Below are positions 14,322-60,565 of a stretch of 64,000 nucleotides of DNA, one piece after another; position 1 is the first letter of the stretch, and each line of letters opens with the position of its first letter. The position numbers were made by a program, and so were the translations under genes. The stretch covers positions 232,978-296,977 of the forward strand of contig CAVVCK010000002.1 of NCBI GenBank assembly GCA_963746775.1. The letters are read 5' to 3'. The DNA is from an uncultured bacterium (GTDB lineage Bacteria; Patescibacteriota; JABMPQ01; CAVVCK01). A model generated the notes under the pieces. The model did no database searches and was not told the origin of the DNA. It worked only from the letters and a program-made list of their open reading frames with translations.

Positions 14322-14462
14322 CCTTCTCCCCTCAGCTGACCACGTATGAAATTCCGTGAAATTTTATAAATTTATTCTTAATCCATAAATTTTATACGTG
14401 GTGAGGAGACAGGGGGGTGCTCCGATGTACATCGGAGCACCCCTCCTAAATTGAAGAGGGGA
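14322..14462. promoter_or_regulatory. Structured divergent intergenic region (lgt <-> udg): nested inverted repeats incl. 14-bp GC hairpin
   Basis: accacgtat...atacgtggt 9-bp arms ~54 nt apart; ggggtgctccgatg-tac-catcggagcacccc perfect hairpin; outer tccttctcccctc / gaggggaagaa arms; CACGTATGAAATT motif related to rpsB-upstream repeats. Confidence 0.4.
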
Positions 14463-15115: not shown

Positions 15116-15119
15116 TTTA

Positions 15120-15305
15120 TATTCTTCTACCTGGCTTTAGCCAAGGGTCTGGGAAGCTTTAGCTTCCTGTAAATATAGCGGCTAAAGCCTAGTAGTCTTC
15201 ACCTCCGATAACCCTCTGCTAAAGCAGAGTGGAAGAATATTTTTCTACCCACCTTTAGGTGAGGGGTTTGAAAGCTTTAGCTTCTCGAAAAATATATAAT
15301 AATTT
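15120..15305. repeat. Array of small hairpins with TTTA/TAAA tetraloops plus ~60-bp imperfect direct repeat, between convergent genes
   Basis: GGCTTTAGCC, GAAGCTTTAGCTTC, GGCTAAAGCC, CTCTGCTAAAGCAGAG, CACCTTTAGGTG, AAAGCTTTAGCTTC; the 14-mer CCTGGCTTTAGCCA recurs at 55088..55101. Confidence 0.4.
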
Positions 15306-42384: not shown

Positions 42385-42465
42385 TTATTTTATTAAATTA
42401 ATAAATATTAAAAAATAATTTCTATGGAATTATTATATTAAAAAATACAATTTGATATTAACATA

Positions 42466-42507
42466 CAGGGGCGGTAGGAATCGAACCTACGTCGCTGGTT
42501 TTGGAGA
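42466..42507 (-). tRNA. 3' portion (nt 31-73) of a split tRNA-Trp(CCA)
   Basis: Minus strand TCTC-CAAA-ACCAG-CGAC-GTAGG-TTCGATT-CCTAC-CGCCCCT-G; anticodon-stem 3' strand ACCAG and acceptor 3' strand CGCCCCT complement the 5' portion at 42978..43010. Confidence 0.6.
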
Positions 42508-42562
42508 CATCTGCCTAGAGCACTAGGCAGATGAGCCATCTGCCTAGAGCACTAGGCAGATG
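42508..42562. repeat. Two tandem copies of a 26-bp perfect palindrome CATCTGCCTAGAGCACTAGGCAGATG
   Basis: 11-bp arms plus 4-nt centre; copies at 42508..42533 and 42537..42562 separated by AGC; directly abut anticodon nt TCTC of the tRNA fragment. Confidence 0.8.
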
Positions 42563-42584
42563 AGACCAGCATCACATTATTAAA

Positions 42585-42854
42585 CTATTTTTTATCTTTT
42601 AATTCCAACCTCTTCATTAAACCGTAATATGCAGAACCGCTATTCTTTAATGATTTCTCTCGTTTTAAAGCTAAGTATTTATCATTAAATGATTCATAAT
42701 AAATAAGCTTAATTGGCAAATATTTTTTAGTACTTTTTACCATCCCTTTCTGATGGCTATCAATTCTTTTCTTTAAGTCACTAGAATATCCGATATAGTA
42801 TTTTCTATTTGGCCTTTTTATTTTAAGAATATATACATAAAACATAATCTTCAT
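42585..42854 (-). CDS. GIY-YIG nuclease-domain protein (UPF0213/YhbQ-like, 89 aa)
   Basis: FYVYILKIKRPNRKYYIGYSSDLKKRIDSHQKG...IKLIYYESFNDKYLALKREKSLK; start codon 1 nt after the 3' end of tRNA-Trp. Confidence 0.75.
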   Translation of the reverse strand: MKIMFYVYILKIKRPNRKYYIGYSSDLKKRIDSHQKGMVKSTKKYLPIKLIYYESFNDKYLALKREKSLKNSGSAYYGLMKRLELKDKK

Positions 42855-42855
42855 A

Positions 42856-42926
42856 CAGGAGCGGTAGGAATCGAACCTACACCTCCGGTTTTGGAGACCG
42901 GAATTCTACCACTAAACTACGCTCCC
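42856..42926 (-). tRNA. tRNA-Trp(CCA), intact
   Basis: GGGAGCG-TA-GTTT-AGTGGTA-GAAT-T-CCGGT-CTCCAAA-ACCGG-AGGT-GTAGG-TTCGATT-CCTAC-CGCTCCT-G. Confidence 0.8.
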
Positions 42927-42952
42927 CTTTTAATAATTTTTAGTTTTGGAGC

Positions 42953-42978
42953 CATCTGCCTAGGGCACTAGGCAGATG
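42953..42978. repeat. Third copy of the 26-bp palindrome (CATCTGCCTAGGGCACTAGGCAGATG)
   Basis: One centre substitution relative to the tandem pair; again inserted after anticodon nt 34 of a tRNA-Trp 5' portion. Confidence 0.8.
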
Positions 42979-43010
42979 AGACCAGCATTCTACCACTAGA
43001 CCACGCCCCC
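42978..43010 (-). tRNA. 5' portion (nt 1-34) of the split tRNA-Trp(CCA)
   Basis: Minus strand GGGGGCG-TG-GTCT-AGTGGTA-GAAT-G-CTGGT-CTC; complements the 3' portion at 42466..42507 in acceptor and anticodon stems. Confidence 0.6.
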
Positions 43011-49835: not shown

Positions 49836-50411
49836 TTACTTATCTTTTTTTAAACCCTTGTACCATTCATTCCTATCCATGCTCTCAATTTCTTCCAATA
49901 ATTCTTTGGCCGAATCGGTCATTAAGGCTTTTTTAATATTTATAATCCAGTCCATACAACCTTTATAACCAATATCAACATATTCTTTGGCAGCAATAGC
50001 CTGTTCTAAATAATCTGCATCTTTAGCACACTGGGCTTCAATAGTTTTTCTCTCTTCAAATTCTTCATATATTTCCCTAAAATCTTTTTCTATATCATCT
50101 GGCAATCGTTTAAATTGATCCAAAGCCGCCTCCCTTTCTCCTTTGTCCGTATCAATATAGCGGGTAACAATACGATGGGCATCATTAATCCTTGCTTCCC
50201 CATTATCATGGATTAAGACCATAAATGAAGTTTTAAAGGGATCCGCTTTCTCCATCTTAGCTAATATAAAAGCTATTTGGGCTGCTCGATGAGAATGCTC
50301 AGCAATACTCTCTGGATTAGAAACTCCAGCAACCGTCCAGCCACAATGTTTTACCCGCCACATCTGCCCTAATTCAAATAAAAGTTTAGTTAATTCTTTT
50401 TTGTCTGACAT
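49836..50411 (-). CDS. HD-domain phosphohydrolase (YfbR/5'-deoxynucleotidase-like)
   Basis: ESIAEHSHRAAQIAFILA ... LIHDNGEARINDAHR HD motif. Confidence 0.6.
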   Translation of the reverse strand: MSDKKELTKLLFELGQMWRVKHCGWTVAGVSNPESIAEHSHRAAQIAFILAKMEKADPFKTSFMVLIHDNGEARINDAHRIVTRYIDTDKGEREAALDQFKRLPDDIEKDFREIYEEFEERKTIEAQCAKDADYLEQAIAAKEYVDIGYKGCMDWIINIKKALMTDSAKELLEEIESMDRNEWYKGLKKDK

Positions 50412-50512
50412 ATTTTTTTCTTGTAGAAAGCCTTGATTTAGGCTTTATTTTTAATTAATTAAAATATATAATTATAATTCATAAAAAGCTTTAAAATTTA
50501 TAAGCTTTACTC

Positions 50513-50575
50513 GCATAGCAGCTGGACTCCAGTTCAGCCTGGAACGCAGGGCAGACTGGGGTCTAGCCGCTACAC
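50513..50575 (+). repeat. GC-rich ~63-nt structured element, copy 1 (16 nt upstream of elp3 start)
   Basis: GCATAGCAGCTGGACTCCAGTTCAGCCTGGAACGCAGGGCAGACTGGGGTCTAGCCGCTACAC; aligns with reverse complement of 52674..52739 with compensatory stem changes. Confidence 0.6.
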
Positions 50576-50595
50576 AATATAATATACAACTGTAA

Positions 50596-52236
50596 ATGCA
50601 ACAAACCATCATAAAAAATTTAATCCTTGATCTGCTTAAATTAAATAATCCAAATCTACCCAAACTTGAAAAGATAAAGAAATTATACGCTAAAAAATAC
50701 AAAATTAGCGTTATTCCTAATACCTCAATAATAGAGACTTATCAAGGTTTAGTCAAAAATAATAAAATTAAAAGTAACAAAAAATTTGAAGAATTTTTGA
50801 AAACTAAAAAAACCAGATCGCTATCTGGAATTGTCTCGGTTGCCATTTTCACCAAACCAACTCCCTGCCCTGGTAGATGTATTTACTGCCCAGATCAAAA
50901 AGATATGCCCAAAAGTTATTTAGATAATGAACCAGCCGTTATGCGCGCCATACTTTGCAATTATGATCCCGCAAAACAGATCCAAGCTAGAATTAAAGCT
51001 TTAGAAATTAACGGACATCCTACCGATAAAATTGAATTAATTGTTATGGGAGGTACGTGGAGCGTACATCCTAAAAGATACCAAAATAATTTTATTAAAA
51101 AATGTTTTCAGACTTGTAATGCTAAGGAGTCCCAGCGAAAGCTGGAGAAGATCAACACTCCAAGCGTTAAAATCTCTGACTATCGTCAGGACTCCGAATT
51201 AAAATCTGAACAAAAGAAAAATGAAAAAGCCAAGCACAGAATTATTGGCCTAACTCTAGAAACCCGTCCTGATTATATTAATCAAAAAGAAATATTGCAC
51301 ATGAGAGAATTAGGCGCAACTCGCGTCGAATTAGGGGTACAAAGCATCTATGATGATATTTTAAAATTTTGTAATAGAGGGCACTTAGTAGATCAAACTA
51401 TCAAGGCAACAAAACTTTTAAAAGATGCTGGCTTTAAAATTAATTACCACATGATGCCTAATCTGCCCGGAAGCTCTAGAGAAAAAGATTTAAAGATGTT
51501 TGAAGATTTATTCTCCAGAGAAGAATTCCAACCAGATATGTTAAAAATTTATCCTTGCGTCTTAACCAAATATTCTGAACTTTATAATTTATGGAAGAAT
51601 GGAAAATATAAACCTTACACTGATCAGGAAATTATAAACTTGTTAATTAAAATAAAACAAAAAATCCCTAAATATGTTCGCATAATGAGATTAGGCCGTG
51701 ATATCCCGGCTAATAATATTATCGCTGGTAATAAAATTTCCAATATTAGGCAAGAGATAAAAAGAATATTTGAAAAAGAAGATTTAAAATGTAAATGTAT
51801 TAGATGTCGAGAAGTTAGAGATATAGAATTTAAAATGAATAATGTAGAATTAAAGAGATATGATTACAAAGCATCCGGAGGAAAAGAGATATTTCTATCT
51901 TTCGAAGATAAGAAAAATGATAAATTGTTGGCCTTTTTGCGCCTACGTATCCCCTCTCAATATTTCACTAAAGAATCTCATTTTATAAAAAGCTTAAATA
52001 ATTCTTCTATAATTCGCGAACTGCATACTTATGGTGAATTAATTCCCATTAGCAGCAAAGGTAAAATACAACATTTTGGTTTTGGTAAAAAATTAATCAA
52101 AGAGGCTGAAAAAATTACTAAAAAAGAATTCAAATTAAATAAAATTACTGTTATTTCTGGAGTGGGAGTTAGGGGGTATTATAGAAAGCAAGGATATAAA
52201 CTAAAAGATAGTTACATGATTAAAAACTTAAAATAG
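50596..52236 (+). CDS. elp3: Elp3-family radical-SAM/GNAT tRNA carboxymethyluridine synthase homolog
   Basis: Radical-SAM CPGRCIYCP cluster motif, central Elp3 domain, C-terminal GNAT motif IRELHTYGELIPISS...QHFGFGKKLIKEAE...ISGVGVRGYYRKQGY. Confidence 0.8.
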   Translation: MQQTIIKNLILDLLKLNNPNLPKLEKIKKLYAKKYKISVIPNTSIIETYQGLVKNNKIKSNKKFEEFLKTKKTRSLSGIVSVAIFTKPTPCPGRCIYCPDQKDMPKSYLDNEPAVMRAILCNYDPAKQIQARIKALEINGHPTDKIELIVMGGTWSVHPKRYQNNFIKKCFQTCNAKESQRKLEKINTPSVKISDYRQDSELKSEQKKNEKAKHRIIGLTLETRPDYINQKEILHMRELGATRVELGVQSIYDDILKFCNRGHLVDQTIKATKLLKDAGFKINYHMMPNLPGSSREKDLKMFEDLFSREEFQPDMLKIYPCVLTKYSELYNLWKNGKYKPYTDQEIINLLIKIKQKIPKYVRIMRLGRDIPANNIIAGNKISNIRQEIKRIFEKEDLKCKCIRCREVRDIEFKMNNVELKRYDYKASGGKEIFLSFEDKKNDKLLAFLRLRIPSQYFTKESHFIKSLNNSSIIRELHTYGELIPISSKGKIQHFGFGKKLIKEAEKITKKEFKLNKITVISGVGVRGYYRKQGYKLKDSYMIKNLK

Positions 52237-52296
52237 TATTGATATATTAAAGAAATTCAGTATACTATCTATTATATACAAATTATAATTATTATT

Positions 52297-52575
52297 ATGA
52301 AAGACAAAATTCATCCAAAATACGTCAATTGCACAATCACTTGCGGTTGTGGAAACACTATTAAAACTAAATCCATAAAGCCAGAAATGAGAATAGAAAT
52401 CTGCTCTGCCTGTCATCCTTTCTATACTGGCCAAGAAAGATTAGTTGACACAGCTGGCCGTGTTGATAAATTCAAAGAAAGACTAGCCAAAGCTAAAAAA
52501 ATACAAGCTAAACCAAAAAAGACTAAAGACCAAAAGAAAGCAACCAAAGCCAAAAAAGCTAAATCTAAAAGATAG
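52297..52575 (+). CDS. rpmE: 50S ribosomal protein L31 with lysine-rich C-terminal tail
   Basis: [20 protein letters not shown]...[11 protein letters not shown] zinc-ribbon L31; KAKKxQAKPKK tail. Confidence 0.85.
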
Positions 52576-52597
52576 CTAAAATAATTTTTAAATACTA

Positions 52598-52626
52598 TAA
52601 TCAGAGGATAATCCTCTGATTTTATG
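52598..52626 (+). terminator. Intrinsic terminator after rpmE
   Basis: aatCAGAGGAtaaTCCTCTGatttt. Confidence 0.55.
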
Positions 52627-52673
52627 TTATAATAATATTAAATTTATTCTTTTATAATTTACACATTTATATC

Positions 52674-52739
52674 GCGTAGTCGGCGGACCCTTGTCCGCCC
52701 TGTATTTTAAACTGGACTGGGATCCAGCTACTACGCAAA
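52674..52739 (-). repeat. GC-rich ~66-nt structured element, copy 2 (inverted; 12 nt upstream of prfA start)
   Basis: Reverse complement GCGTAGTAGCTGGATCCCAGTCCAGTTTAAAATACAGGGCGGACAAGGGTCCGCCGACTACGC; P1 GCGTAGT/ACTACGC, hairpins CTGG-ATC-CCAG and GGCGGAC-AAGG-GTCCGCC. Confidence 0.6.
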
Positions 52740-52751
52740 ACCTCTAAACTT

Positions 52752-53822
52752 ATGATCTTAAATAAAACAAAAAAAATAGAAGATGAGTATAAACAAATTG
52801 CAGATGATCTAGCTAACCCTGCTGTTACTTCCGATCATCAAAAATTACAAAAATTATCTAAAAGACAAGCGGAATTAGAAGATATTATTCAAAAAATAAA
52901 CAAGCTTAAGAAAATAAAAGAAGATATAAAACAATCTCAAGATATGGTTGAAAATGAGCAGGATCAGGAATTAATAGCTCTAGCCGAAGAAGATATAAAT
53001 AATTTAAAATCAGAAGAGAGTAAATTAAACCAGGAACTAGAAATAGAATTATTGCCCCGAGATCCTAATGATGCCAATAACGCTATTATAGAAATTAGAG
53101 CTGGCGTTGGCGGCGATGAAGCTGAGCTTTTTGCAGCCAATTTATATCGTATGTATAATCGCTACGCAGCCAGCAAGGGTTTTAGTGTTGAAGTCCTAAA
53201 TTCCAACCGATCAGAGTTAGGAGGATTCAAAGAAATAGTTTTTCAGATTAAAGGTACTAACGCTTATGGTATTTTTAAATACGAGAGTGGAGTTCATCGT
53301 GTGCAGAGAGTTCCAGAAACAGAAAAAGCTGGACGTATCCATACCTCAACTGCCACCGTCGCTGTACTGCCGGAAATAAAAGAAATTGATATAGATATCA
53401 AGCCAGAAGATATTAGAGTAGATGTTTTCCATGCTTCTGGTCATGGAGGACAGGGAGTAAATACTACTGATTCAGCTGTCCGAATTACCCACCTTCCTTC
53501 TGGCATAGTTGTTACCTGCCAGGACGAGAGATCACAAATCAAAAACCGCGCCAAGGCTATGAAGGTTTTACAATCAAAATTATTTATGAATAAAGAAGAA
53601 GAAGAAGCCAACAGAAGAGATAAAGCCAGACGCATTCAAATAGGTTCGGGTATGCGCAGTGAAAAAATAAGAACCTACAATTATCCTCAGGATAGAATTA
53701 CGGATCATAGGATAAAATTAAGCTTAAATAATATTGAAGAAGTCCTAAACGGCAATATAGATAAATTAATATCAAAATTAAAAGAAGAAGATCAGAAATT
53801 AAAAATGGAGAATTTAAAATAA
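52752..53822 (+). CDS. prfA: Peptide chain release factor 1
   Basis: GGQ motif ([28 protein letters not shown]), PxT-type decoding region; 356 aa. Confidence 0.9.
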
Positions 53823-56480: not shown

Positions 56481-56759
56481 TTATGTTTTTTCTACTTTTT
56501 TAGTACCTTCTCCTTCTACGTATTGGGGTTCATTCGGGTCTGTAGGTTTTTGATCTCTGTTTTTTGCTTCCTTAAATTGTTTTTCTAATTTTTTAATACC
56601 TTCTCCTTCTACATATTGGGGTTCATTCGGGTCTGTAGGTTTTTGATCTCTGTTTTTTGCTTCCTTAAATTGTTTTTCTAATTTTTTAATACCTTCTCCT
56701 TCTACATATTGGGGTTCATTTGGAGAAACCGGGGAAAAACCTTCGGGATTTTTATTCAT
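56481..56759 (-). CDS. Tandem-repeat protein (three 31-aa repeats PNEPQYVEGEGIKKLEKQFKEAKNRDQKPTD)
   Basis: Underlying 93-bp DNA tandem repeat x ~2.8 at 56500..56760, nearly identical copies. Confidence 0.4.
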   Translation of the reverse strand: MNKNPEGFSPVSPNEPQYVEGEGIKKLEKQFKEAKNRDQKPTDPNEPQYVEGEGIKKLEKQFKEAKNRDQKPTDPNEPQYVEGEGTKKVEKT

Positions 56760-57081
56760 GTGTTTTTGTTATTTATTAAAATTTTACACTTATGTTATTT
56801 CATAAAAATTAATTAAAAATTTAATTCTTATGAATGCTAACATTTAAGCCTCTATTTCTTCTTTTTCCTTATTTTTAGACATTTTTTCTTCTGCAAGTCT
56901 TTCTTTTTTGGCTATTTCTTGCAGATATAGTTTCATTTCAAAATCTACTTCGATATTCATTTTTTTGTTTTTATTTTTTATTTTTTTTAACCCCGTAGGA
57001 TTATTTTATCTTCATCTATATTATAGCATAAAATTAAAAAAGAGTCTATAGTAGACTCTTTTTTACACCTTATTATTTAAT

Positions 57082-59195: not shown

Positions 59196-60565
<1,370 letters not shown>

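What the first reader, a model, noticed from the sequence alone, without database searches (positions are those of the whole stretch)
50513..52739. Two inverted copies of a ~65-nt GC-rich structured element immediately upstream of the elp3 and prfA start codons
Copy 1 (50513..50575, plus strand) and copy 2 (52674..52739, reverse complement) align over their full length at ~70% identity. Base changes preserve hairpins: GGCGGAC/GTCCGCC versus GGCAGAC/GTCTaGCC, CTGG-ATC-CCAG versus CTGG-ACT-CCAG, and an outer stem GCGTAGT/ACTACGC.

Both end 12-20 nt before an ATG, but in opposite orientation relative to the gene. That argues for a DNA-level or orientation-independent function (protein binding site, REP-like element, recombination site) rather than a classical riboswitch. 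Two inverted copies flanking a 2.1-kb segment (elp3-rpmE) could also permit inversion. No recombinase is nearby.
Basis: seen in the sequence. Interest (0 to 1): 0.55.

Follow-up and report, generated by a model that had tools for sequence, protein, structure and literature searches.

The report
Low-copy REP-like palindrome in two leaders
Two diverged, inverted copies of a 63-nt GC-rich palindrome sit in the 5' leaders of elp3 and prfA of an AT-rich Patescibacteria genome; they look like a small REP/REPIN-like DNA repeat and not a riboswitch or inversion switch, so the finding is real but fairly ordinary.

Summary
Copy 1 (50513-50575) and copy 2 (52674-52736) are inverted 63-nt copies, about 72% identical, far beyond chance. 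Each copy is itself an imperfect palindrome. It has two arms of about 26 nt that start with G-Y-R-T-A-G, and it folds either as one long hairpin or as two small hairpins closed by a GCGTAGT/ACTACGC stem. Both strands fold equally well.

Both copies lie between a conserved -10 box and the start codon of a plus-strand gene (elp3, prfA), in opposite orientations.

Relatives with the same gene order in about nine lineages lack the element at both sites, including the closest one (RF1 88% identical). One non-sister lineage (L082) has a related palindrome with the same ACTACGCAAAA end, 15 nt from the prfA ATG. It is probably flipped.

There is no Rfam match. No transposase or recombinase is encoded in the 64 kb. 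No further copy occurs in 194 kb of window plus relatives.

Best reading: a low-copy, REPIN-like terminal-inverted-repeat DNA element that is tolerated in leaders. It fails the abundance criterion for REPs in this window, and its mobilising enzyme is unknown. The riboswitch and invertible-segment readings are not supported. Whole-genome copy number could not be tested.

The parts
50513..50575 (-). Copy 1 of the 63-nt GC-rich palindromic element. The minus strand corresponds to the plus strand of copy 2. It lies in the elp3 leader, 20 nt before the ATG.
   Evidence: 87.7 bits on the minus strand, 37.5 bits on the plus strand
50550..50575 (-). Copy 1, arm H3 (GTGTAGCGGCTAGACCCCAGTCTGCC on the minus strand), a GTAG-tagged half-site
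50513..50538 (+). Copy 1, arm H4 (GCATAGCAGCTGGACTCCAGTTCAGC on the plus strand). The tag here is degenerate: ATAG.
52674..52736 (+). Copy 2 of the element, in the prfA leader, 15 nt before the ATG
   Evidence: 93.1 bits on the plus strand, 37.9 bits on the minus strand; identical in L001
52674..52699 (+). Copy 2, arm H1: GCGTAG-TC-GGCGGAC-CCTT-GTCCGCC (GTAG tag, 7-bp stem, 4-nt loop)
52711..52736 (-). Copy 2, arm H2 (GCGTAGTAGCTGGATCCCAGTCCAGT on the minus strand)
50443..50472 (+). Conserved promoter block CTTTATTTTTAATTAATTAAAATATATAAT between the HD-domain gene and elp3. The -10 hexamer TATAAT is at 50467-50472. Copy 1 lies downstream of it on the plus strand.
   Evidence: conserved in 7 lineages (sequences)
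52599..52621 (+). Intrinsic terminator of rpmE (10-bp stem followed by a T run)
   Evidence: conserved in relatives
52625..52633 (+). Extended -10 box TGTTATAAT of prfA. Copy 2 lies between this box and the ATG.
   Evidence: identical in window, L035, L037, L086, L088 and L093, and in L038 and L039
49836..50411 (-). HD-domain phosphohydrolase gene, divergent from elp3
50596..52236 (+). Elp3-like radical SAM gene
52297..52575 (+). rpmE (ribosomal protein L31)
52752..53822 (+). prfA (release factor 1)

Best explanation
The two sequences are members of a small family of non-coding DNA elements with terminal inverted repeats. Each is a head-to-head doublet of two REP-like half-sites. A half-site is a G-Y-R-T-A-G tag followed by a short GC-rich hairpin. 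This is the architecture described for REPINs and for GTAG-REP 'HH dimers'.

Inferred history: the element entered, or was copied into, the untranslated leaders of elp3 and prfA in this lineage after it split from its closest sampled relative. It acts at the DNA level and has no fixed orientation. It can extrude as a hairpin in single-stranded DNA, which is the substrate form used by HUH/Y1 (RAYT, IS200/IS605-type) enzymes. No such enzyme has been found here, and the mobilising activity is unknown.

Once inserted, it is transcribed as part of both leaders. Because it is palindromic, it gives a stable GC-rich hairpin in either orientation. It stops 15-20 nt before the start codon and leaves the A/U-rich initiation region free. 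This organism hardly uses Shine-Dalgarno sequences.

Any effect on expression (a 5' hairpin stabiliser, an RNase III target, or pairing between the two leaders) would be a by-product of the insertion.

Shown: the anatomy, the positions, absence in relatives, and a related copy in L082. Inferred: mobility, the mechanism, and near-neutrality.
For: 1. Architecture. Each copy has two inverted arms, 62-82% identical to one another, and 3 of 4 begin with GTAG. It folds either as one long hairpin or as two hairpins closed by a 7-bp terminal stem. Energies are equal on both strands, as RNA (z -4.4 to -6.2) and as DNA. The model scores 38 bits on the reverse strand. This matches published REPIN and HH-dimer descriptions: GTAG on the outside, folding separately or as one large stem-loop, heterodimers, G-T pairs, compensatory changes (PMC3116915, PMC3733652).

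2. Insertion-like distribution. The element fills an alignment gap in the L31-prfA spacer of five aligned relatives that keep the terminator and TGTTATAAT box. L038, L039 and L083 also lack it. It has no counterpart in the HD-elp3 spacer of six relatives that keep the promoter block. The closest relative, L035 (RF1 88.5% identical), lacks both copies.

3. A family, not a private duplication. L082 has a GC-rich palindrome ending in ACTACGCAAAA, 15 nt before the prfA ATG. Its centre is different. Its proximal arm is 17/20 identical to the reverse complement of the distal arm of copy 2 (P about 0.002 by shuffling). L082 is not sister to the window lineage. So the termini are conserved, the centre varies, and both orientations occur at one locus.

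4. Relatives carry other, unrelated palindromic inserts at the same leader positions, so these leaders tolerate such inserts.

5. No known RNA family matches.
Against: - Copy number is low. There are 2 copies in 64 kb, only 2.1 kb apart. There are none in the other 62 kb with filters off and none in about 130 kb from relatives. REP families usually have tens to hundreds of dispersed copies.
- No RAYT, transposase or recombinase is encoded in the window.
- No target-site duplication is visible.
- A metagenome scan with a half-site pattern and two viral scans found no relatives.
- REPs are typically 3' of genes, not in 5' leaders (PMC3733652).
- The L082 element is cut by the contig end, so its 5' arm and true orientation are inferred.
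- Persistence of paired structure at 72% identity could also reflect selection on an RNA or DNA hairpin function.
Confidence: 0.5

Rival explanations
1. Lineage-specific structured leader element. A hairpin that works in either orientation because it is palindromic, acting on the RNA. It could be a 5' stabiliser, an RNase III site, a binding site for a double-strand-binding protein, or a pairing partner between the elp3 and prfA leaders that couples two translation-related genes.
For: - Both copies lie inside leaders, downstream of conserved -10 boxes and 15-20 nt from the ATG.
- The folds are strongly stable.
- Structure is kept despite 28% divergence, with 2 compensatory pairs and 2 G-U pairs.
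- A related element is present at prfA in a second lineage.
- The two leader RNAs are mutually complementary. The predicted heteroduplex is -85.8 kcal/mol against -64.7 for the two separate folds, a gain of -21.1; shuffled controls give -2.7, sd 1.5.
- Only 5 of 55 genes have a Shine-Dalgarno-like motif, so leader structure could matter for initiation.
Against: - The element is absent from the leaders of the closest relatives, which carry unrelated sequence there.
- Neither strand is favoured.
- Covariation is not significant.
- No Rfam family matches.
- Heteroduplex complementarity is an automatic consequence of any inverted duplication.
Confidence: 0.2
2. One-off local duplication with no mobility machinery. 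One copy was templated from the other 2.1 kb away, for example by replication template switching between nearby leaders. Both copies have since drifted.
For: - There are only two copies in 64 kb and they are neighbours.
- No transposase is present in the window.
- No relatives were found in the metagenome or viral scans.
Against: - The related element in the non-sister lineage L082 has the same terminus and distance to the ATG but a different centre and probably the opposite orientation.
- The structured GTAG-doublet architecture and the retention of pairing at 72% identity are not expected from neutral drift of a random duplication.
Confidence: 0.2
3. Recombination sites of an invertible 2.1-kb elp3-rpmE segment.
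For: Two inverted copies flank the segment.
Against: - No recombinase is encoded in 64 kb.
- Every syntenic relative has the same gene orientation.
- The longest exact match between the copies is 7 nt.
- The prfA promoter lies inside the segment, so inversion would uncouple prfA from it.
Confidence: 0.03
4. Classical riboswitch or small-RNA gene read from one strand. In that reading, copy 1 would serve the divergent HD-domain gene and copy 2 would serve prfA.
For: - In the shared orientation, copy 1 points towards the HD gene and copy 2 towards prfA.
- The outer stem of copy 1 uses two G-U pairs on that strand.
- Both copies share a TTATAT motif just 5' of the element.
Against: - Copy 1 lies upstream of the conserved promoter block shared with relatives, about 100 nt from the HD start.
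- The opposite strand folds as well or better.
- There is no Rfam match at E up to 10.
- The element is absent in orthologous positions.
- The terminator-like T run follows hairpin 1 only in copy 2.
Confidence: 0.04

Closest known systems
REPINs / GTAG-tagged REP 'HH' dimers (Bertels & Rainey 2011, PMC3116915; Di Nocera et al. 2013, PMC3733652)
   Same: - It is an inverted doublet of short GC-rich imperfect palindromes with GTAG at the outer ends.
- It folds either as two hairpins or as one long hairpin.
- The two arms differ (a heterodimer).
- It shows G-T pairs and compensatory changes.
- It is extragenic and has no target-site duplication.
   Different: - Copy number is very low in the sampled 64 kb (2 copies, adjacent), against tens to hundreds dispersed.
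- No RAYT was seen.
- It lies in 5' leaders, one of them between divergent genes, where REPs usually lie downstream of genes.
- The spacer is short (about 11 nt).
- The host is a small AT-rich Patescibacteria genome, a group in which my searches turned up no report of REPs.
Bacterial MITEs such as Correia/NEMIS, RUP, ERIC (from my own knowledge)
   Same: It is a short non-coding element with terminal inverted repeats. It is present or absent between close relatives, it is inserted in transcribed intergenic DNA, and it forms RNA hairpins that can alter mRNA fate.
   Different: At 63 nt it is shorter than most MITEs. No flanking direct duplication and no parent insertion sequence with matching ends were found.
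Riboswitches / cis-regulatory leader RNAs
   Same: It is a GC-rich structured island in an AT-rich 5' leader close to the start codon.
   Different: It is not conserved in orthologous leaders. It occurs in both orientations, it has no strand asymmetry, and it has no Rfam match.
Invertible DNA switches (fimS, hin type; from my own knowledge)
   Same: Inverted repeats flank a DNA segment.
   Different: No adjacent recombinase is present. The segment carries housekeeping genes and the prfA promoter. No alternative orientation is seen in any relative.

Membership tests
REP / REPIN (GTAG type) | Short imperfect palindrome with a 6-13 bp stem and a small loop | tested here: met
   Arm H1 has a 7-bp stem and a 4-nt loop. 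The other arms have 4-7 bp stems with a bulge or a 3-6 nt loop.
REP / REPIN (GTAG type) | Conserved GTAG (or GYAG/GTRG) tag at one end of each unit | tested here: met
   GTAG is present in 3 of 4 window arms and in the L082 arm. The fourth window arm has ATAG.
REP / REPIN (GTAG type) | Inverted doublet that can form one long hairpin (REPIN / HH dimer) | tested here: met
   The minimum-energy fold is a long hairpin for copy 1 and for copy 2 as RNA. Copy 2 as DNA folds as a two-hairpin junction. The reverse strand scores 38 bits.
REP / REPIN (GTAG type) | High copy number, dispersed through extragenic space | tested here: not met
   Only 2 copies occur in 64 kb, 2.1 kb apart. The rest of the 547-kb contig could not be read.
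REP / REPIN (GTAG type) | Cognate RAYT (Y1_Tnp, PF01797) in the genome, usually flanked by REPs | tested here: inconclusive
   None found among the 59 ORFs of 90 aa or more that were scanned, plus one 89-aa ORF, in the window. About 88% of the contig was not available.
REP / REPIN (GTAG type) | Preferential location downstream of genes (between convergent or co-directional ORFs) | tested here: not met
   Both copies lie between a -10 box and a start codon. One is in a divergent spacer.
MITE | Terminal inverted repeats | tested here: met
   The terminal repeats are GCGTAGT/ACTACGC and GTGTAGC/GCTATGC, extending imperfectly to about 25 nt.
MITE | Target-site duplication flanking the element | tested here: not met
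   The flanks are TTTATATC|...|AAAACCTC and ATTATATT|...|AGTAAAGC, with no direct repeat.
MITE | Presence/absence polymorphism between related genomes | tested here: met
   It is absent at both sites in L035, L038, L039, L086 and L088, and at prfA in L037, L083 and L093. A related element is present in L082.
Riboswitch / cis-regulatory RNA | Conservation in orthologous leaders with a fixed orientation to the gene | tested here: not met
   It is absent in sister lineages. The two window copies are in opposite orientations, and L082 is probably flipped.
Riboswitch / cis-regulatory RNA | Significant covariation supporting one strand's structure | tested here: inconclusive
   There are 2 compensatory pairs in 2 sequences, and 135 of 500 shuffles reach that value. 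Both strands fold equally well.
Riboswitch / cis-regulatory RNA | Match to a curated RNA family | tested here: not met
   Rfam 15 gives nothing at gathering threshold or at E up to 10, apart from a chance miRNA-hairpin hit.
Invertible DNA switch | Adjacent site-specific recombinase | tested here: not met
   No recombinase domain is found in the 64 kb.
Invertible DNA switch | Both orientations of the segment observed | tested here: not met
   The HD(-), elp3(+), L31(+), prfA(+) order is the same in all relatives that span it. Read-level data are not available.

The most novel reading that the evidence does not exclude
A previously undescribed family of REPIN-like mobile palindromes in Patescibacteria. 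It would insert site-specifically between the -10 box and the start codon of translation-related genes. The same junction 15 nt before the prfA ATG occurs in two non-sister lineages, in opposite orientations. Its inverted copies would make the elp3 and prfA leaders mutually complementary (predicted gain of -21 kcal/mol on pairing). That would couple the two mRNAs through a double-stranded RNA, or would form a long-range processing stem around elp3-rpmE in read-through transcripts.
Probability: 0.1. Interest if true: 0.55.

Novelty: new member of a known kind. Interest (0 to 1): 0.25.

Why it matters
If the reading is right, even a streamlined Patescibacteria genome of roughly 0.5 Mb carries REP/REPIN-like palindromic DNA. 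It also shows that the leaders of essential translation genes (RF1, Elp3) are sites where such inserts come and go between close lineages.

This matters for annotation. GC-rich structured islands in AT-rich genomes are a standard way to nominate new riboswitches, and this case would be a false positive for that approach.

It would become more interesting only under three conditions: the whole genome holds many copies, a mobilising enzyme is identified, or the inserts measurably change RF1 or Elp3 expression.

Tried and rejected
1. Known RNA family. Rfam at gathering threshold on the whole window, and at E up to 10 on 50350-52800, gave only tRNAs and a chance miRNA-hairpin hit. Relatives' spacers also gave nothing.

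2. More copies.
- A covariance model built from the two copies found nothing else in the window with filters off. It found nothing in the relative and other fetched loci searched, apart from a marginal hit on L082 (15 bits).
- A GYRTAG..CTAYRC regex on 194 kb found only the two copies.

3. Public collections.
- The metagenome scan with half-site pattern GYRTAGYRGCTRGAYYCCAGT gave 40 loci, all unrelated: a marine coding sequence, Alu, and chance hits.
- Two viral scans gave one unrelated coding hit and nothing else.
- blastn against plasmids and phages gave nothing meaningful.

4. The 5' half of the L082 element. L31-based look-ups returned the L037 lineage again (L092) and another lineage without overlap (L093). 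All look-ups are now used.

5. Attenuator idea. A terminator-like T run follows hairpin 1 only in copy 2.

6. RF1-sensing upstream ORF ending at the UAG in GCGUAG. There is no ATG, GTG or TTG in frame in the leader, and the frame is closed by TAA 21 nt upstream (read).

7. A wider GTAG-hairpin family in the window. Only one extra AT-rich hairpin was found (50427-50446), plus tRNA arms.

8. Own promoter for a small RNA. The spacing of the candidate hexamers is poor.

9. Literature on REPs or MITEs in Patescibacteria. One search gave nothing relevant.
Full report
**Setting.** The window is AT-rich (about 31% G+C). Its gene content and protein matches place it in Patescibacteria (candidate phyla radiation, CPR): RF1 and Elp3 hits are named Patescibacteria/Parcubacteria. 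Around the finding the genes are:
- an HD-domain gene (49836-50411, minus strand);
- an Elp3-like radical SAM gene (50596-52236, plus);
- rpmE (52297-52575, plus);
- prfA (52752-53822, plus);
- a glycosyltransferase and prmC further downstream.

- Copy 1 is 50513-50575 and copy 2 is 52674-52736. Both are 63 nt.
- They form the longest inverted repeat of the region by far: 70 nt at 70% complementarity, with the next longest at 31 nt.
- The ungapped alignment has 46 invariant columns.
- The local alignment score (35) exceeds all 5000 dinucleotide shuffles (mean 13.7, sd 2.2, maximum 28). Copy 1 is the best non-self match to copy 2 in the 64 kb.
- Two sub-patterns occur only at these two places, with 0.02 hits expected.
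- Copy 2 is identical in an independent short contig from run ERR11571143 (L001).

**Anatomy.** Each copy is itself an imperfect palindrome.
- Reading inwards from either end gives four arms: GCGTAGTCGGCGGACCC..., GCGTAGTAGCTGGATCCC..., GTGTAGCGGCTAGACCCC... and GCATAGCAGCTGGACTCC.... They are 62-82% identical to one another.
- Three of the four arms match a single 21-nt consensus.
- The covariance model built from the two copies scores 88-93 bits on the 'sense' strands and still 38 bits on the opposite strands.
- There are two alternative folds. One is a long hairpin (the minimum-energy fold of copy 1, and of copy 2 as RNA). The other is two small hairpins closed by the 7-bp terminal stem GCGTAGT/ACTACGC (copy 2 as DNA, and its reverse strand as RNA).
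- Both strands fold about equally well (RNA -28 to -36.5 kcal/mol, z -4.4 to -6.2; DNA -14.5 to -17.3), so no strand is favoured.
- Between the copies, two pairs change on both sides and two become G-U. With two sequences this is not significant (135 of 500 shuffles).

**Position relative to promoters.**
- After the rpmE terminator (52599-52621) comes an extended -10 box, TGTTATAAT (52625-52633). It is identical in eight related lineages. Copy 2 lies between this box and the prfA ATG and ends 15 nt before it.
- Between the HD gene and elp3 there is a 30-nt block ending in TATATAAT (50443-50472). It is conserved in seven lineages. Copy 1 lies between that block and the elp3 ATG and ends 20 nt before it.
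- Both copies are therefore most likely transcribed as parts of the leaders of plus-strand genes, in opposite orientations. This is inferred from promoter conservation; no RNA data exist.
- Only 5 of 55 genes in the window have a Shine-Dalgarno-like motif. The A/U-rich 15-20 nt left free before each ATG may be what initiation needs. That is inference.

**Relatives.** Using RF1, Elp3 and L31 homologues, I fetched syntenic contigs from about ten lineages.
- The gene order HD(-), elp3(+), L31(+), prfA(+) is the same in every contig that spans it.
- The element is absent from the L31-prfA spacer of L035/L036, L037/L092, L038, L039/L040, L083-85, L086, L088-91 and L093.
- It is also absent from the spacer upstream of elp3 in L035, L038, L039, L086, L087 and L088. 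In the alignments it occupies a gap. The model finds nothing in these loci.
- Several relatives carry other, unrelated palindromic sequences at the same leader positions. They score at background against the element.

**The exception, L082.** This contig comes from Logan run SRR22388163, and its RF1 is 82% identical to the window's. The contig begins inside a GC-rich palindrome that ends ...GGGGTCCGCTAACTACGCAAAA, followed by 11 nt and the prfA ATG.
- Copy 2 ends ...GGGATCCAGCTACTACGCAAAA, also followed by 11 nt and the ATG.
- The L082 centre is different: a 44-nt GC hairpin.
- Its gene-proximal arm matches the reverse complement of the distal arm of copy 2 best (17/20; P about 0.002 by shuffling). 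This suggests the opposite orientation.
- In an RF1 tree, the window pairs with L035 and L082 pairs with L037. Presence in the window and L082 therefore means either two losses or two gains at the same spot.
- L035, L037 and the outgroup L088 share leader motifs (TAGAA..., ATTCATAATTC) that the window and L082 lack. This favours two acquisitions or a recombinational transfer. That is inference.

**What it is not.**
- It matches no Rfam family.
- It is not a conserved, strand-specific leader RNA, for the reasons above.
- It is not an inversion switch. No recombinase, transposase or Y1 transposase is found among the 59 scanned ORFs of 90 aa or more, plus one 89-aa ORF, in the window. No relative has the segment inverted. 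The longest exact identity between the copies is 7 nt. The prfA promoter lies inside the segment.
- No relatives appeared in the metagenome, viral, plasmid or phage collections with the patterns I could use.

**What it most resembles.** Published descriptions of GTAG-tagged REPs and REPINs fit the anatomy closely:
- a GTAG tag at one end of a short hairpin;
- 'HH' dimers with the tags outside, folding separately or as one large stem-loop;
- frequent heterodimers, G-T pairs and compensatory changes (PMC3733652, PMC3116915).

Membership is not established, for three reasons:
- The defining abundance is not met in the 64 kb: two adjacent copies, and none in another 62 kb or in about 130 kb of relatives.
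- No RAYT was seen.
- The 5'-leader location is atypical.

I therefore file it as a low-copy, REPIN-like terminal-inverted-repeat element. Mobility is inferred from its presence/absence pattern and its conserved ends, not demonstrated.

**Possible consequence.** Because the copies are inverted, the two leaders are mutually complementary. The predicted heteroduplex is -85.8 kcal/mol against -64.7 for the separate folds; shuffled controls gain only -2.7 (sd 1.5). This follows automatically from any inverted duplication. I list it only as the most novel reading that the evidence does not exclude.

**Limits.** The whole-genome copy number and the presence of a mobilising enzyme remain the decisive unknowns.

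Noticed in passing
window 42462-43010 (minus strand): A tRNA-Trp(CCA) gene is split in its anticodon loop by an insert of about 370 bp. The 5' part is around 42979-43010 and the 3' part is 42462-42503; joined, ARAGORN calls them tRNA-Trp. The insert carries a second, intact tRNA-Trp (42856-42926) and an 89-aa GIY-YIG nuclease ORF (about 42585-42851; PF01541, E 3.6e-14). Both junctions carry a 26-nt perfect hairpin, CATCTGCCTAGNGCNCTAGGCAGATG (3 copies; 40-nt direct repeats 98% identical). Relative L038 has an uninterrupted tRNA-Trp. It looks like a nuclease-associated mobile cassette that brings its own replacement tRNA. There was no group I intron hit at Rfam gathering threshold.
   Followed up: partly
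window 59196-60556 (minus strand): The ATP synthase beta subunit gene (atpD) is split into two ORFs (178 aa and 261 aa) by a 1-nt frameshift near 60027. It is intact (453-455 aa) in relatives. This is either an assembly indel or a pseudogene.
   Followed up: partly
window-wide (55 start regions): Only 5 of 55 genes have a Shine-Dalgarno-like motif in the 20 nt before the start codon. The leaders are A/U-rich.
   Followed up: partly
L035 1040-1100 and L088 6540-6600: Two related lineages share a conserved GC-rich segment in the elp3 leader, GCTCACCTGAGGCGTCC(T/C)CGCCGAAG. It is unrelated to the window element and has no Rfam hit. It is a candidate structured leader or another insert family.
   Followed up: partly
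L039 3802-4090 / L040 1-107: The prfA leader of this lineage holds two other palindromic inserts. One is flanked by GACTACGTACCAAAC/GTTTGGTACGTAGT. The other contains GTCATTGCGAGGAGCGAAGCGACGAAGCAATC.
   Followed up: no
window 15119-15291: A 55-nt unit is repeated twice and is made of hairpins with a TTTA loop (GGAAGCTTTAGCTTCC type). Similar GCTTTAGC/GCTAAAGC hairpins occur in L039 3332-3534 and L083 1-141.
   Followed up: no
window 56481-56765 (minus-strand ORF): There are three tandem 93-nt repeats (97% and 66% identical) inside a 92-aa ORF with no Pfam match.
   Followed up: no
L086 1758-3762: In this relative, two extra genes (a radical SAM gene and a methyltransferase gene) sit between the HD gene and elp3. 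The promoter block GGCTTTATTTTTAATTTAT...TATATATAATCAATGGTAATTCTTAAA is duplicated on both sides of the insertion.
   Followed up: no
window 14408-14449: A perfect GC-rich palindrome, GGGGGGTGCTCCGATGTACATCGGAGCACCCC, lies between the divergently oriented lgt and UDG genes (their 5' ends). Its role there is unclear.
   Followed up: no
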